In this document: positions 25,233-27,785 of the stretch, piece by piece
Position numbering within the stretch: position 1 is the first letter of the stretch
Layout of the letters: each line of letters starts with the position of its first letter
Assembly (NCBI GenBank): GCA_963711705.1
Contig: CAVQFM010000014.1
Location: 315,296 to 355,295, forward strand
Length of the DNA stretch: 40,000 nucleotides
Direction: 5' to 3'
DNA from: an uncultured Actinomycetes bacterium
GTDB taxonomy: Bacteria > Actinomycetota > Actinomycetes > Streptosporangiales > Streptosporangiaceae
Made by a program: the position numbers and the translations under genes
The notes under the pieces: generated by a model
Seen by the model: only the letters and a program-made list of their open reading frames with translations
Database searches by the model: none
Told to the model about the DNA's origin: nothing

Positions 25233-25460
25233 ATGGGATTATACGGGCCGGCCGGGCACATAGTTCAACCGTCCGGCTGCGGCAGGATAGTGGGTCGGCG
25301 GCCGGTTGCGGTGAACCAGCGTGACCGACGGACCCGTTGTCCCCGTCAAGGATGGGGCAGATAGATACGGAGACGGAGGTGCGGTGCGCACGGTTCAGCC
25401 AGCGGATAAGGGCACGCGGCCTGTGACCCGGCTCGGCGGGCAAGGGCGTGCTGCCTGCGG

Positions 25461-27785
25461 TTGGGCTCGCGGCGATCCTGGGGTTGCTGGCCACAGCCGC
25501 CCTGCTCGGCGTCGTGTCCGCCACGGCCGGTCTCGGCGTCGCCGGGCTGGGTCGCCGGGCTGGTTACTGGTTCGGCGGCGGCCGGGCTGGTGGTCGGCGC
25601 CCGGATGCGCAGCGATCAGCCGGCGATATTCCCGGCCGACTGGGTCACCCTGACCCGGACGCTGCTGATCGCCGGGGTCGCGGGACTGGTGGCCGACTCG
25701 TTTAGCGGGCCGGTATCCGTCACAACGCTGGTCACCCTGTCTACCGTCGCGCTGGTGCTGGACGCGGTGGACGGGCAGGTGGCGCGGCGGACCGGCACCG
25801 CCACTGCGCTGGGCGCCCGGATCGACGGCGAGGTCGACGCGTTCTTGATCTTGCTGCTCAGCATCTACGTGGCCCAGGACTACGGCAGCTGGGTGCTGGT
25901 CATCGGCGCCGCCCGCTACGCGCTGCTGCTGGCAGGCTGGCTGATACCGTGGCTGGCCGCGCCGCTGCCCCCCCGGTACTGGGGCAAGGTCGTGGCCGCG
26001 GTCGCGGGCATCGTGCTGACCGCCGCCGCCTCCGGGCTGCCCGGCCGCCGCGCCGGGATGATCGCGGTCGCCGCCGCGTTGGTGCTGCTGGCCGAGTCGT
26101 TCGGCCGCAACGTGATCTGGCTGTACCGCACCGGCGCCGGCCCGCGCACCCGCCCGGCCCTGCGGCTGGCCATCACCGCGCTGTCGGCCGTCCTCGTCTG
26201 GGGGGTGCTCGTCGCACCCGACCGCATCTACCAGCTCACCCCGGCCGCCTTCGCCCGCATCCCCGTCGAAGGCCTGGCCCTGATCGCCATCGCGCTGGTG
26301 CTGCCACCCCGGCCACGACGGATCGTGGCCGCCGCCGCCGGAATCCTGTTCGGCCTGATCACCCTCCTCAAGCTTCTCAACTTGGGGTTCTACGCGGAGA
26401 TCGGGCGGGCATTCAACCCGGTGCTCGACTGGGGCGACATCGGCCCGGCTGTTGGCGTGGTACGCGACGCGATCGGTGACACGGCCACCAACATCGCGCT
26501 CGTCGCGGTCTGGATCGCGCTCATCCTGATCATCGGCGCAATCACCGCAGCAACGATTCACCTCACCACCGTGGCTGCCCGGCATCGCCGCGACGCGGTC
26601 CGCGGGCTCGCTGCCTGCACCGCGGTCTGGGCGCTGTTCGCGGTCTTGTCGCTGCAACTGGTCCCGGGATCCCCGGTCGCCTCGGCCAGCGCCGCCGGGC
26701 TGGCCGTCGCGCAGGTGCGCGACACCCGGGCAGCGCTCCGTGACCAGCACCGTTTCGAGCAGGCCCTGCACCGCTCCGACCCTCAAGCCAGCGTCCCCGC
26801 TTCGGACCTGCTCACCGGACTGCGCGGCAAGGACGTCGTCATCGCCTTCGTCGAAAGCTACGGGCAGGTCGCCGTCCACCGCACCAGCTTCTCTCCCGGC
26901 GTCAACGCCGTCCTGCGCCGCGGCACTGCCTCGCTGGCCCGGGCCGGCTGGTCCACGCGGAGCGCCTGGCTCACCTCCCCGACCTTCGGCGGGATCAGCT
27001 GGCTCGCCCACTCCACCCTGCAGTCGGGACTGTGGGTCAACACCGAACTGCGGTACTCCGAACTCGTCGCCAGCCACCGGTTCACCCTCACCGACGCCTT
27101 CGGCAAGGCCGGCTGGCGCACCGTCAGCGACATCCCCTCTGATGAGTACACCTGGCCGCCCGGCTCGGCCCTCTACCACTACGACAAACTCTACGACCGG
27201 CGCAACGTCGGCTACCACGGCCCGGCCTTCAGCTACGCCTCGATGCCCGACCAGTACACCCTGGCCGCGTTCCAGCGGCTCGAACTCACCGCAGGCCACC
27301 AGCCGGTGATGGCCGAGATCGACCTGGTCTCCTCGCACACGCCCTGGGCCCCGTTGCCGGCCATGGTGCCCTGGGACAAGATCGGCGACGGCTCGATATT
27401 CGACTCCATGCCTGCGCAGGGCGGATCCCCGATCACGGTCTGGGGCAACGCCAGCACCGTGCGCCAGTTCTACGGCCGGTCGATCCAGTACTCGCTGCAG
27501 GCCCTCACCTCATGGGTCACCGAGCTCAATGACCCAAACCTCGTGCTCATCCTGCTCGGCGACCACCAGCCCTCCAGCACCGTCAGCGGCGATCGGGCCA
27601 ACCACCAGGTGCCGATCTCGATCGTCGCCCACGACCCTTCCGTGTTCCGGCAGATTGCTTCCTGGCACTGGCAGGACGGGCTGCTGCCCGGGCACTTCGC
27701 TCCGCTCAAGCCAATGAGCGCCTTCCGCAACCAGTTCCTCGGCGCCTTCAGCACGGCCTCGTCCCAAAGCGGCGTCGGCCCATAG
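25461..27785 (+). CDS. Fusion: CDP-alcohol phosphatidyltransferase + multi-TM block + LtaS/EptA-like (alkaline-phosphatase superfamily) ectodomain
   Basis: 'DAVDGQVARRTGTATALGARIDGEVD' equals the D-G-x2-A-R-x8-G-x3-D-x3-D motif. After about 5 more TM helices come 'DVVIAFVESYG', 'SPTFGGISW' roughly 43 aa later, and 'LILLGDHQP', in the same order and spacing as the E / Thr-nucleophile / DH metal-site motifs of LtaS-type enzymes. A plausible first TM helix (LPAVGLAAILGLLATAALLGVVSATAGLGVAG) is encoded from GTG 25448 in a different frame, so a frame break near 25541-25552 is suspected. Confidence 0.8.
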   Translation: MGSRRSWGCWPQPPCSASCPPRPVSASPGWVAGLVTGSAAAGLVVGARMRSDQPAIFPADWVTLTRTLLIAGVAGLVADSFSGPVSVTTLVTLSTVALVLDAVDGQVARRTGTATALGARIDGEVDAFLILLLSIYVAQDYGSWVLVIGAARYALLLAGWLIPWLAAPLPPRYWGKVVAAVAGIVLTAAASGLPGRRAGMIAVAAALVLLAESFGRNVIWLYRTGAGPRTRPALRLAITALSAVLVWGVLVAPDRIYQLTPAAFARIPVEGLALIAIALVLPPRPRRIVAAAAGILFGLITLLKLLNLGFYAEIGRAFNPVLDWGDIGPAVGVVRDAIGDTATNIALVAVWIALILIIGAITAATIHLTTVAARHRRDAVRGLAACTAVWALFAVLSLQLVPGSPVASASAAGLAVAQVRDTRAALRDQHRFEQALHRSDPQASVPASDLLTGLRGKDVVIAFVESYGQVAVHRTSFSPGVNAVLRRGTASLARAGWSTRSAWLTSPTFGGISWLAHSTLQSGLWVNTELRYSELVASHRFTLTDAFGKAGWRTVSDIPSDEYTWPPGSALYHYDKLYDRRNVGYHGPAFSYASMPDQYTLAAFQRLELTAGHQPVMAEIDLVSSHTPWAPLPAMVPWDKIGDGSIFDSMPAQGGSPITVWGNASTVRQFYGRSIQYSLQALTSWVTELNDPNLVLILLGDHQPSSTVSGDRANHQVPISIVAHDPSVFRQIASWHWQDGLLPGHFAPLKPMSAFRNQFLGAFSTASSQSGVGP

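What the first reader, a model, noticed from the sequence alone, without database searches (positions are those of the whole stretch)
25448..27785. One polypeptide fuses a CDP-alcohol phosphatidyltransferase to an LtaS/EptA-like ectodomain ('make and transfer' architecture)
- The N-terminal ~200 aa carry the complete D-G-x2-A-R-x8-G-x3-D-x3-D motif ('DAVDGQVARRTGTATALGARIDGEVD').
- A further multi-TM block follows, then a ~400-aa soluble domain with 'VESYG', 'SPTFGG' roughly 43 aa later, and 'GDHQP'. Order and spacing mirror the metal-binding Glu, Thr nucleophile and Asp-His of LtaS-type phospho-head-group transferases (my recollection of the S. aureus LtaS layout).
- Fusing the synthesis of a phospholipid to the enzyme class that consumes phospholipid head groups is unusual. 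It implies a dedicated lipid donor.
- The divergently transcribed neighbour is a flippase-like protein, which fits the topology problem of cytoplasmic synthesis and outside transfer.
Basis: partly seen in the sequence, partly recalled or inferred. Interest (0 to 1): 0.7.

Follow-up and report, generated by a model that had tools for sequence, protein, structure and literature searches.

The report
Phospholipid synthase fused to LtaS-like transferase
One membrane protein joins an enzyme that builds a phospholipid on the inner face of the membrane to an outward-facing enzyme of the kind that removes phospholipid head groups and attaches them to surface molecules. It sits in a conserved, unstudied gene cluster of soil actinobacteria, which points to an unknown cell-envelope modification.

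Summary
The fusion is real. ORF 25461-27785 (+, 774 aa) carries three parts:
- a CDP-alcohol phosphatidyltransferase (PT) domain with the full signature motif (Pfam PF01066);
- five further transmembrane helices;
- a 373-aa C-terminal domain.

The C-terminal domain has no Pfam hit. Its AlphaFold model (pLDDT 95.7) matches LtaP/LtaS best, then OpgB-like, GacH, EptA and MCR-1 structures.

T508 is Gly, Val or Ile in many homologues. Ser513 is invariant, starts the following helix, and aligns with the LtaS catalytic Thr.

Predicted topology puts the PT site on the cytoplasmic side and the C-terminal domain outside.

The fusion is widespread in Actinomycetota. In other phyla the two halves are separate genes, adjacent or nearby; 60 of 64 informative loci carry a cognate PT.

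The conserved cluster also holds an MprF-type flippase-like gene, GTP cyclohydrolase II, a PTPS-family enzyme, a Zn-dehydrogenase, a GT4 glycosyltransferase, methyltransferases and a histidine phosphatase.

"Make a dedicated lipid, flip it, transfer its head group" is the best-supported mechanism, but it is untested. The head group and the acceptor are unknown.

The gene's 5' end has two frame breaks relative to homologues.

The parts
25461..27785 (+). Uninterrupted ORF of the fusion protein (774 aa; TTG start is only the first possible start; Met49 at 25605 is the start used for the identical database protein P0001)
25357..25546 (+). Remnant of the ancestral 5' extension. It covers about 60 aa and encodes the first of two extra N-terminal helices seen in homologues of about 808 aa (the second helix is in the main frame). 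It is read in two other frames (25357-25446 and 25436-25546), so there are two frame breaks relative to homologues.
25635..26081 (+). CDP-alcohol phosphatidyltransferase domain (residues 59-207; six TM helices in the model)
   Evidence: Pfam PF01066 41.9 bits vs cut-off 22; helices
25761..25838 (+). PT signature D101-x2-D104-G-x2-A-R-x8-G-x3-D122-x3-D126. All eight positions checked are invariant in 121 aligned sequences (the query plus 120 homologues), except D126, which is Asn in 2.
26148..26654 (+). Second membrane block of five TM helices (residues 230-398). The positively charged loops fall on the cytoplasmic side, so the block runs N-in, C-out.
26664..27782 (+). Extracytoplasmic alkaline-phosphatase-superfamily (LtaS-like) domain, residues 402-774
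   Evidence: AF2 pLDDT 95.7; Foldseek LtaP 9e-13, then LtaS, GacH, EptA, MCR-1
26853..26855 (+). Glu465 (VESYG), predicted metal ligand at the end of the first core strand; invariant
26982..26984 (+).
26997..26999 (+). Ser513 (GGISWLAH), proposed true nucleophile. It is invariant, is the first residue of helix 513-522, and aligns with the LtaS catalytic Thr.
27249..27251 (+). Asp597 (MPDQY), an invariant residue of unknown role
27336..27338 (+). His626 (SSHTPW), 99-100% conserved; aligns with SSHMPF of LtaP and TNHFPY of LtaS
27561..27566 (+). Asp701-His702 (GDHQP), predicted metal ligands after a core strand. Asp is invariant; His is replaced by Glu in 104 of 121 close homologues.
24207..25232 (-). 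Divergent neighbour: MprF-type flippase-like membrane protein (LPG_synthase_TM only, no synthase domain)
   Evidence: PF03706 E=5.7e-28; present in 69/80 and 28/34 related loci
23463..24200 (-). GTP cyclohydrolase II (RibA subfamily)
   Evidence: conserved in cluster
22381..23296 (+). Methyltransferase-like gene, split over two frames in the window and a single ORF in L003, L008 and L025
21623..22384 (+). Class I SAM methyltransferase
20265..21383 (-). GT4 glycosyltransferase (weakly MshA-like)
28341..29048 (-). Histidine phosphatase, CobC/alpha-ribazole-phosphatase-like
29082..29492 (-). PTPS/QueD-family enzyme
29449..30420 (-). Zn-dependent dehydrogenase-family protein; 39% identical to the counterpart in the split Gemmatimonadota cluster
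30452..31261 (-). Class I SAM methyltransferase (UbiE-like)
31227..31838 (-). SRPBCC (Polyketide_cyc2) small-molecule/lipid-binding protein; conserved edge of the cluster

Best explanation
The gene encodes a bifunctional integral membrane enzyme. It is the centre of a conserved envelope-modification cluster of about 11 genes.

Shown:
- Residues 59-207 are a CDP-alcohol phosphatidyltransferase with an intact catalytic motif.
- Residues 230-398 are five TM helices.
- Residues 402-774 are an alkaline-phosphatase-superfamily domain closest to LtaS/LtaP, with a conserved Glu465 / Ser513 / His626 / Asp701-His(Glu)702 site.
- The two halves occur fused, or as neighbouring genes, in several phyla.
- An MprF-type flippase-like gene and a fixed set of small-molecule enzymes travel with them.

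Predicted:
- The PT active site faces the cytoplasm and the C-terminal domain faces outward.

Inferred:
1. The PT domain condenses CDP-diacylglycerol with an alcohol made by the neighbouring enzymes: GTP cyclohydrolase II, the PTPS-family enzyme, the dehydrogenase, the GT4 glycosyltransferase, the methyltransferases and the phosphatase. This gives a dedicated phospholipid, phosphatidyl-X.
2. The flippase-like neighbour moves that lipid to the outer leaflet.
3. The LtaS-like domain attacks its phosphodiester with metal-activated Ser513, forms a phospho-X-enzyme intermediate and releases diacylglycerol.
4. The domain passes phospho-X to an extracytoplasmic acceptor, either a glycan or a glycolipid. 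In diderm relatives the acceptor may be periplasmic glucans.

The identities of X and of the acceptor are unknown.
For: Domain identities:
- PF01066 scores above its cut-off and the motif is complete.
- The motif is invariant in the 121-sequence alignment (query plus 120 close homologues), apart from D126N in 2.
- The ectodomain model has pLDDT 95.7.
- Its Foldseek top hits are LtaP, LtaS, the alkaline-phosphatase-superfamily protein 3lxq (which I take to be OpgB-like), EptC, GacH, EptA and MCR-1.
- Full-length MCR-1 aligns over 615 columns of the full-length model.
- Homologues P0125 and P0154 pass Pfam Sulfatase.
- P0154 hits LtaP with E=0.004.

Catalytic site:
- E465, S513 and D597 are invariant; H517, H626 and D701 are at least 93% conserved.
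- hhalign puts E465, S513, H626 and D701-H702 on the LtaS Glu, catalytic Thr, His and Asp-His.

Topology:
- Six plus five TM helices, with Arg-rich loops on alternate sides.

Linkage of the two halves:
- Of 64 informative metagenome loci, 46 are fused, 8 have a PT directly upstream, 6 have a PT within 10 kb and 4 have none.
- The separate PT genes beside stand-alone ectodomain genes are 36-46% identical to the fused PT domain and share its motif variant GAR(F/I)D(M/G)E(V/L)D.
- Housekeeping PgsA, PssA and PIP-synthase models score only 17-23 bits.

Cluster conservation:
- Among the 80 genome loci, 69 have the flippase-like gene, 59 GT4, 60 a methyltransferase, 54 the dehydrogenase, 43 the PTPS-family gene and 42 GTP cyclohydrolase II.
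- Similar proportions hold in metagenome loci.
- The set recurs in Gemmatimonadota and in an unidentified diderm.
Against: - There are no biochemical or genetic data, and I found no literature on the family.
- The window's own ectodomain gets no Pfam hit even at E<=10. The profile search against PDB sequences is not significant.
- TM-scores to LtaS are only about 0.5, at 11-15% identity.
- The second metal ligand is variable: His702 is Glu in most close homologues.
- Some family members have no PT nearby. One diderm locus has the PTPS-family gene, the dehydrogenase, GT4, a methyltransferase and the ectodomain gene but no PT or flippase-like gene within 7 kb. The ectodomain may therefore use a common phospholipid.
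- No step links the GTP-derived chemistry to the PT acceptor.
- Topology rests on hydropathy, charge and a model, not on a dedicated predictor or experiment.
- The two 5' frame breaks could mean the window's copy is damaged.
Confidence: 0.5

Rival explanations
1. An actinobacterial lipoteichoic-acid-type polymerase. The PT domain makes phosphatidylglycerol phosphate or a similar polyol-phosphate lipid. The LtaS-like domain polymerises the head groups outside the membrane. This would fill the gap left by the absence of LtaS orthologues in LTA-producing actinomycetes.
For: - The nearest solved structures are LtaP and LtaS.
- JGI annotates the family as phosphatidylglycerophosphate synthase.
- Actinomycetes make LTA but lack clear LtaS orthologues (PMC3196553).
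Against: - The PT domain scores 18-20 bits against PgsA models whose cut-offs are 109-304.
- The conserved partners are GTP cyclohydrolase II, a PTPS-family enzyme, a dehydrogenase, GT4 and methyltransferases, not glycerol-phosphate enzymes.
- The same module occurs in diderm Gemmatimonadota and Methylococcaceae, which do not make LTA.
- Presence in known LTA producers such as Thermobifida or Streptomyces was not shown.
Confidence: 0.12
2. The ectodomain uses an ordinary phospholipid (PG or PE) as donor, as OpgB, EptA and LtaS do. The PT domain serves the lipid cycle rather than making a special donor. It might, for example, rebuild the consumed lipid, or re-charge the diacylglycerol by-product from a CDP-activated alcohol.
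For: - All characterised relatives use bulk PG or PE (established knowledge of LtaS, OpgB, EptA and MCR-1).
- A few loci have the ectodomain gene without a PT gene.
- Diacylglycerol is the obligatory by-product, and CDP-alcohol transferases can use it as an acceptor, as eukaryotic CPT/EPT do (established knowledge).
Against: - No cytidylyltransferase that would make a CDP-alcohol is conserved in the cluster.
- The PT subfamily is specific to these clusters and remote from housekeeping PgsA and PssA.
- A co-conserved flippase-like gene is unnecessary for bulk lipids, which are already in the outer leaflet.
Confidence: 0.15
3. The C-terminal module is not a transferase. It is either a hydrolase (phospholipase-C-like or phosphatase) or a lipid-binding regulator in the manner of PbgA/YejM, coupled to the PT domain to control membrane lipid composition.
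For: - PbgA (6xlp) is among the full-length structural matches.
- The alkaline-phosphatase superfamily includes many hydrolases, such as sulfatases and phosphonate monoester hydrolases.
- The ligand His702 is variable.
Against: - The full catalytic constellation (Glu, Ser, His, Asp) is invariant or nearly so across sequences down to 33% identity.
- The best matches are transferases, not PbgA.
- The co-conserved glycosyltransferase and methyltransferases suggest that a product is built, not degraded.
Confidence: 0.1
4. The fusion has no mechanistic meaning: two independent envelope enzymes joined by chance or for co-expression. Alternatively, the window's copy is a decaying pseudogene.
For: - There are two frame breaks at the 5' end.
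- The database copy is annotated from an internal Met.
Against: - The 774-codon frame is open with GC3 of 0.91.
- All catalytic residues are intact.
- Another gene in the window also has a frame break, and a related MAG has its own breaks, which suggests assembly indels.
- Fusion, adjacency or clustering of the same two subfamilies holds in 60 of 64 loci and across phyla.
Confidence: 0.03

Closest known systems
LtaS / LtaP (lipoteichoic acid synthase and primase of Firmicutes)
   Same: - Five N-terminal TM helices followed by an extracytoplasmic alkaline-phosphatase-fold domain.
- The best structural matches: 4uop 9e-13, then 4uoo, 4uor, 2w5r and 2w8d.
- Equivalent Glu, nucleophile, SSH-x-P(F/W) His and GDH positions.
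   Different: - Only 11-15% identity and TM-score about 0.5.
- No Pfam Sulfatase hit for this protein.
- Ser instead of Thr as the nucleophile.
- His of the Asp-His pair is often Glu in close homologues.
- Fused to, or clustered with, its own lipid synthase.
- Different gene context and, presumably, a different donor.
OpgB (MdoB) and GacH phosphoglycerol transferases; EptA, EptC and MCR-1 phosphoethanolamine transferases
   Same: - The same architecture and superfamily: a phospholipid head group is moved onto periplasmic or surface glycans or lipid A through a covalent enzyme intermediate.
- Structural hits 3lxq, 6dgm, 6a82, 5fgn and 9nww.
- One split cluster sits beside an OpgG-family (MdoG) gene.
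   Different: - Those enzymes use bulk PG or PE and are not linked to a CDP-alcohol transferase or a flippase.
- They use a Thr nucleophile and, in the Ept/MCR enzymes, Zn sites.
MprF (lysyl-phosphatidylglycerol synthase/flippase)
   Same: - The logic of making a modified lipid in the cytoplasm and flipping it outward.
- The neighbour gene carries the MprF flippase-type domain PF03706.
   Different: - MprF fuses the flippase to the synthase and stops there.
- Here the flippase-like protein is separate, the synthase is of another family, and a third, outward-facing transferase step is added.
- The neighbour scores 25 bits against a cut-off of 600 for the MprF model.
PgsA, PssA, PIP synthase and archaetidylinositol-phosphate synthase (CDP-alcohol phosphatidyltransferases)
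   Same: The same Pfam family, the same eight-residue signature, and a six-helix core with the motif on helices 2-3.
   Different: - Far below every equivalog cut-off.
- It forms its own subfamily, found only with the LtaS-like partner.
- The acceptor alcohol is unknown.

Membership tests
CDP-alcohol phosphatidyltransferase (PF01066) | Profile match above the curated threshold | tested here: met
   41.9 bits against a cut-off of 22, residues 59-207
CDP-alcohol phosphatidyltransferase (PF01066) | Signature D-x2-D-G-x2-A-R-x8-G-x3-D-x3-D | tested here: met
   Residues 101-126. Invariant in the 121-sequence alignment (query plus 120 homologues), except D126N in 2.
CDP-alcohol phosphatidyltransferase (PF01066) | Six-TM core with the signature spanning the end of TM2 and the start of TM3 | tested here: met
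   In the AF2 model, helices 87-111 and 116-141 carry the four Asp. There are six helices between residues 58 and 225. This is a model only.
PgsA / PssA / PIP-synthase equivalogs | NCBIfam equivalog score above cut-off | tested here: not met
   17-23 bits against cut-offs of 107-304
Alkaline-phosphatase superfamily, Pfam Sulfatase (PF00884) | Profile match | tested here: not met
   No Pfam hit for residues 225-774 or 402-774 even at E<=10. Family members P0125 (39.2 bits) and P0154 (42.3 bits) pass the 25-bit cut-off.
Alkaline-phosphatase superfamily | Core alpha/beta fold | tested here: met
   Model pLDDT 95.7, pTM 0.93. Foldseek returned 256 PDB matches at E<=0.001; the 50 best listed are all alkaline-phosphatase-superfamily members.
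LtaS/EptA-type membrane phospho-head-group transferases | Five N-terminal TM helices with the catalytic domain outside the cytoplasm | tested here: met
   Five helices at residues 230-398, with K/R-rich loops at 223-229, 281-287 and 372-378 and an acidic loop at 312-342. Full-length MCR-1 aligns over 615 columns. This is a prediction, not an experiment.
LtaS/EptA-type membrane phospho-head-group transferases | Metal ligands: Glu after strand 1 and an Asp-His pair after a late strand | tested here: inconclusive
   Glu465 and Asp701 are invariant and correctly placed. His702 is present in the window but is Glu in 104 of 121 close homologues.
LtaS/EptA-type membrane phospho-head-group transferases | Conserved Thr nucleophile at the N-terminus of a helix | tested here: not met
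   Thr508 is not conserved. The equivalent position holds the invariant Ser513, the first residue of helix 513-522, which is aligned to the LtaS 'GQGKT' Thr by hhalign.
LtaS/EptA-type membrane phospho-head-group transferases | Uses a glycerophospholipid as donor and releases diacylglycerol | not testable with these tools
   Needs an enzyme assay.
MprF-type flippase (neighbour 24207-25232) | LPG_synthase_TM domain | tested here: met
   PF03706, 98.7 bits against a cut-off of 33.4. It is not an MprF equivalog (25 bits against 600) and has no synthase domain.
MprF-type flippase (neighbour 24207-25232) | Lipid translocation activity | not testable with these tools
   Needs a flippase assay or lipid-asymmetry measurement.

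The most novel reading that the evidence does not exclude
The cluster builds a previously unknown phospholipid whose head group derives from GTP. Candidates are a ribosyl- or ribityl-aminopyrimidine or a pterin-type alcohol, which is glycosylated and methylated. The fusion protein both synthesises that lipid and, after flipping by the MprF-like neighbour, transfers the phospho-head group onto a surface glycan or glycolipid. This would be a new class of envelope decoration with a dedicated lipid carrier, conserved from Actinomycetota to Gemmatimonadota and Proteobacteria.
Probability: 0.2. Interest if true: 0.85.

Novelty: new variant of a known kind. Interest (0 to 1): 0.65.

Why it matters
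All characterised LtaS, OpgB and EptA-type enzymes draw on bulk membrane lipids. A version physically fused to its own lipid synthase, and always accompanied by a flippase-like protein, would show that bacteria can run a private lipid-carrier cycle (make, flip, transfer) for a special head group.

The conserved partners are GTP cyclohydrolase II, a PTPS-family enzyme, a dehydrogenase, a GT4 glycosyltransferase, methyltransferases and a phosphatase. They suggest a head group unlike any known phospholipid. The family is abundant in soil Actinomycetota, so an unrecognised envelope component of a major soil phylum may be at stake.

The finding also gives a testable candidate for the long-noted absence of LtaS orthologues in actinomycetes. 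And it corrects the residue to mutate: Ser513, not Thr508.

Tried and rejected
- **Pfam and NCBIfam on the C-terminal domain.** No hit.
- **phmmer and a family profile against PDB sequences.** Only the PT domain was significant. LtaP appeared at E=1.7.
- **Model coordinates.** They are not exposed, so I could not do a residue-level superposition. I used conservation, DSSP and hhalign against LtaS sequence recovered instead.
- **Literature searches.** I searched for the fusion, for the cluster and for SCO6655. Nothing describes this family.
- **The SCO6655 idea.** I considered that the GTP cyclohydrolase II is the FAPy-forming SCO6655 type. From my memory of Spoonamore et al. 2006, that type has Met at the switch position. 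The window protein has Tyr there ([13 protein letters not shown]), so I dropped the idea.
- **Frame breaks as the cause of the fusion.** I considered whether the 5' frame breaks create the fusion artificially. They do not: both domains lie downstream in one frame.
- **Thr508 as nucleophile.** Rejected on conservation.

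
Full report
**1. Observation**

The window is high-GC, about 70%. The only long open frame over the reported interval is 25461-27785 on the + strand. It is 774 codons long with GC3 of 0.91.

- the CDP-alcohol phosphatidyltransferase (PT) signature at residues 101-126;
- VESYG at 464;
- SPTFGG at 506;
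- GDHQP at 700.

Homologues are mostly about 808 aa. Compared with them, the window's 5' end reads in three successive frames: 25357-25446, 25436-25546 and 25545 onward. There are therefore two frame breaks upstream of the PT domain. They remove an N-terminal extension that carries the first of two extra helices, and nothing else. The identical database protein P0001 is annotated from Met49.

A second gene in the window, at 22381-23296, also has a frame break that is absent from three related loci. Another related MAG has breaks of its own. Assembly indels are therefore the likeliest cause.

**2. N-terminal domain**

Pfam PF01066 matches residues 59-207 at 41.9 bits, against a cut-off of 22. 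The eight-residue signature is complete. It is invariant in the 121-sequence alignment (the query plus 120 close homologues), apart from D126N in 2.

The domain is remote from the housekeeping enzymes. The PgsA, PssA and archaetidylinositol-phosphate synthase models score 17-23 bits against cut-offs of 107-304. The only PDB sequence match is an archaeal PssA at E=0.005.

**3. C-terminal domain**

Sequence methods alone fail here:
- no Pfam hit even at E<=10;
- no NCBIfam hit;
- a family profile reaches LtaP in the PDB only at E=1.7.

An exhaustive search with residues 402-774 found 2209 representative clusters. An alignment of 112 of them (A1) gave an AlphaFold model with mean pLDDT 95.7 and pTM 0.93.

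Foldseek against the PDB ranks the matches as follows:
- LtaP first (4uop, 9e-13);
- then LtaS of Listeria, Staphylococcus and Bacillus;
- then a Vibrio alkaline-phosphatase-superfamily protein (3lxq);
- then sulfamidase, EptC, GacH, EptA and MCR-1.

Family members 43-53% identical to the window protein pass the Pfam Sulfatase threshold, and one hits LtaP at E=0.004. NCBI names stand-alone members 'sulfatase-like hydrolase/transferase' or 'alkaline phosphatase'.

The domain is inside that superfamily and nearest to the lipid-head-group transferases.

**4. Active site**

Across 112 sequences down to 33% identity, the invariant ectodomain positions are Glu465, Gly468, Ser513, Gly523 and Asp597. 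His517, His626, Asp701 and His702 are at least 93% conserved.

Members with Val, Ile, Met or Gly there keep every other catalytic residue. Among the 120 closest homologues it is Gly in 77.

Three observations favour Ser513:
- It is the first residue of helix 513-522, directly after core strand 498-505. In this superfamily the nucleophile sits at that position (established knowledge).
- hhalign of A1 against Listeria LtaS sequence recovered aligns VESYG with LESFQ and Ser513 with the Thr of 'GQGKT'. It aligns Thr508 with the non-catalytic Thr five residues earlier, SSH626 with TNH, and GDH with GDH. The overall hhalign probability is low, because the template is a single sequence, but the register is consistent throughout.
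- The most conserved stretch of the family, used as the metagenome search pattern, is GGxSWLAH[ASG][TS].

His702 is Glu in 104 of 121 close homologues. The second ligand of the Asp-His pair is therefore not fixed.

**5. Topology**

The full-length model (pLDDT 89.2) shows:
- one N-terminal helix (28-50);
- six helices for the PT domain (58-225);
- five more helices (230-251, 261-280, 283-313, 340-374, 376-396);
- then the soluble domain.

In solved CDP-alcohol transferases the signature faces the cytoplasm and the six-helix core ends in the cytoplasm (established knowledge). The loops at 223-229, 281-287 and 372-378 are Arg-rich. The loop at 312-342 is acidic. This fits an N-in, C-out path for the five-helix block and an outward-facing C-terminal domain.

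Full-length MCR-1 (9nww) aligns over 615 columns and PbgA over 592. No dedicated topology predictor was available, so this remains a prediction.

**6. Distribution, fusion and fission**

The full-length protein has more than 3500 database relatives at E<=1e-5. One genome per species gave 141 confirmed loci. They span Streptosporangiaceae, Actinocrinis, Frankiaceae, Micromonosporaceae, Jatrophihabitans, Nakamurella, Gaiellales, Solirubrobacterales and Thermoleophilaceae.

Among the 150 best ectodomain representatives, 21 carry the strict PT motif, while 83 are 500-599 aa long, consistent with five TM helices plus the ectodomain alone.

Stand-alone genes usually have their own PT gene nearby:
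- overlapping and directly upstream (P0193);
- divergent and adjacent, in Methylococcaceae (P0154);
- one gene away (P0217);
- about 7 kb away in the same cluster, in Gemmatimonadota (P0259).

These separate PTs are 36-46% identical to the fused PT domain and share its motif variant.

A metagenome scan gave 80 further loci. Of the 64 informative ones, 46 are fused, 8 have a PT directly upstream, 6 have a PT within 10 kb and 4 have none. This is classic fusion/fission evidence that the two activities work together.

**7. Gene cluster**

In the window the cluster runs from about 20.3 to 31.8 kb. Its genes, in order, are:
- a GT4 glycosyltransferase;
- a methyltransferase;
- a methyltransferase-like gene;
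- GTP cyclohydrolase II;
- the flippase-like gene;
- the fusion gene;
- a truncated sigma-like ORF;
- a CobC-like histidine phosphatase;
- a PTPS/QueD-family enzyme;
- a Zn-dehydrogenase;
- a methyltransferase;
- an SRPBCC protein.

Presence among the 80 genome loci, many of them truncated, is as follows:

| Gene | Loci with the gene (of 80) |
|---|---|
| Flippase-like | 69 |
| GT4 | 59 |
| Methyltransferase | 60 |
| Zn-dehydrogenase | 54 |
| SRPBCC | 51 |
| PTPS-family | 43 |
| Histidine phosphatase | 43 |
| GTP cyclohydrolase II | 42 |

Metagenome loci of at least 8 kb give similar figures.

The split clusters of other phyla keep GT4 (37% identical), the dehydrogenase (39% identical), the PTPS-family gene and a methyltransferase. 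They add a creatininase-family protein and RibD_C. The creatininase family includes formamidases of the early riboflavin pathway (PMC9478397).

In one Gemmatimonadota cluster there is also an OpgG-family gene and a 980-aa GT2::GTP-cyclohydrolase-II fusion. OpgG is part of periplasmic glucan synthesis. In E. coli those glucans are decorated by the LtaS-like enzyme OpgB (established knowledge).

**8. Mechanism**

What is shown: the two catalytic domains, their intact sites and their genetic coupling.

What is predicted: their opposite membrane faces.

What is inferred: the PT domain makes a dedicated phosphatidyl-X from CDP-diacylglycerol and an alcohol supplied by the cluster. The MprF-type neighbour translocates it. 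Ser513, activated by the metal held by Glu465 and Asp701-His/Glu702, takes the phospho-X group, releases diacylglycerol and passes the group to an outside acceptor.

One speculative fit: the CobC-like phosphatase and the GTP cyclohydrolase II suggest that a dephosphorylated ribosyl- or ribityl-aminopyrimidine, or a pterin-type product, could be the alcohol. Nothing here tests that.

I rate the overall 'make, flip, transfer' model at about 0.5. The rivals, each set out with evidence in its own section, are:
- an LTA-type polymerase;
- use of bulk lipids, with the PT domain serving the lipid cycle;
- a hydrolase or a PbgA-like regulator;
- a meaningless or decaying fusion.

**9. Comparison with the known, and novelty**

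Both domain families are well known, and databases already label the parts. The fused proteins are named only by their PT domain.

What is new:
- the architecture;
- a PT subfamily dedicated to an LtaS-like partner;
- the Ser nucleophile;
- the constant association with a flippase-like protein and a GTP/pterin-type enzyme set.

I found no paper that describes any of this. The literature does record that LTA-producing actinomycetes lack clear LtaS orthologues (PMC3196553). This divergent family is invisible to Pfam in the window protein, so it is a candidate worth testing. The gene context, however, argues against a simple polyglycerolphosphate synthase.

I classify it as a new variant of a known kind, of above-average interest.

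Noticed in passing
window 25357-25546: The 5' end of the fusion gene reads in three frames relative to homologues of about 808 aa, so there are two frame breaks. The ancestral N-terminal extension with the first of its two extra helices is lost from the open frame. Likely assembly indels, but a real truncation is not excluded.
   Followed up: yes
window 22381-23296 (+): A methyltransferase-like cluster gene is split into two overlapping frames near 22760. It is a single ORF of about 303 aa in L003, L008 and L025. L006 has different breaks.
   Followed up: partly
window 27872-28300 (+); L003 about 12400-12790: The ECF sigma-like ORF just downstream of the fusion gene covers only profile positions 76-177 (region 4). 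The same truncated form is in L003. A stand-alone relative (L081) has a full ECF sigma and an anti-sigma gene at this position.
   Followed up: partly
window 27564-27566 (His702) and 26982-26984 (Thr508): In 104 of 121 close homologues the His of GDHQP is Glu. In 77 of 121 Thr508 is Gly. The window protein belongs to the minority form at both positions.
   Followed up: yes
L091 5335-9964 and 11769-19191: A Gemmatimonadota MAG carries the split version of the cluster next to an OpgG-family (MdoG) gene and a 980-aa protein that fuses GT2 glycosyltransferase domains to GTP cyclohydrolase II. Creatininase-family, RibD_C, Methyltransf_21 and Lnb_N genes are also there.
   Followed up: partly
L082/L083 3892-8862 (and downstream to 14512): In an unidentified diderm, a stand-alone ectodomain gene lies next to dehydrogenase-like, PTPS-family, GT4 and methyltransferase genes. 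It is followed by an Omp85/POTRA gene and a very large ORF. No PT or flippase-like gene lies within 7 kb.
   Followed up: no
L058/L060, L063/L065, L067/L072, L022/L034, L041/L045: Several MAGs carry two copies of the fusion gene on different contigs. One copy tends to lie in the full cluster and the other in a reduced context with only the flippase-like, methyltransferase and SRPBCC genes.
   Followed up: no
window 23463-24200 (-): The cluster's GTP cyclohydrolase II has Tyr in '[13 protein letters not shown]'. This is the residue that, from my memory of Spoonamore et al. 2006, distinguishes canonical enzymes from the formyl-retaining SCO6655 type. It also has an N-terminal extension of about 45 aa relative to RibA profiles.
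   Followed up: partly
window 31854-33248 (-) and 18317-20048 (+): The flanking genes are an APH-family kinase-like protein and an apparent pyridine-nucleotide-disulfide-oxidoreductase-like gene (family judged by eye, not scanned). The two flanking ORFs tested (19647-20048 and 31854-33248) are not conserved in related loci, which marks the cluster edges at about 20.2 and 31.9 kb.
   Followed up: partly
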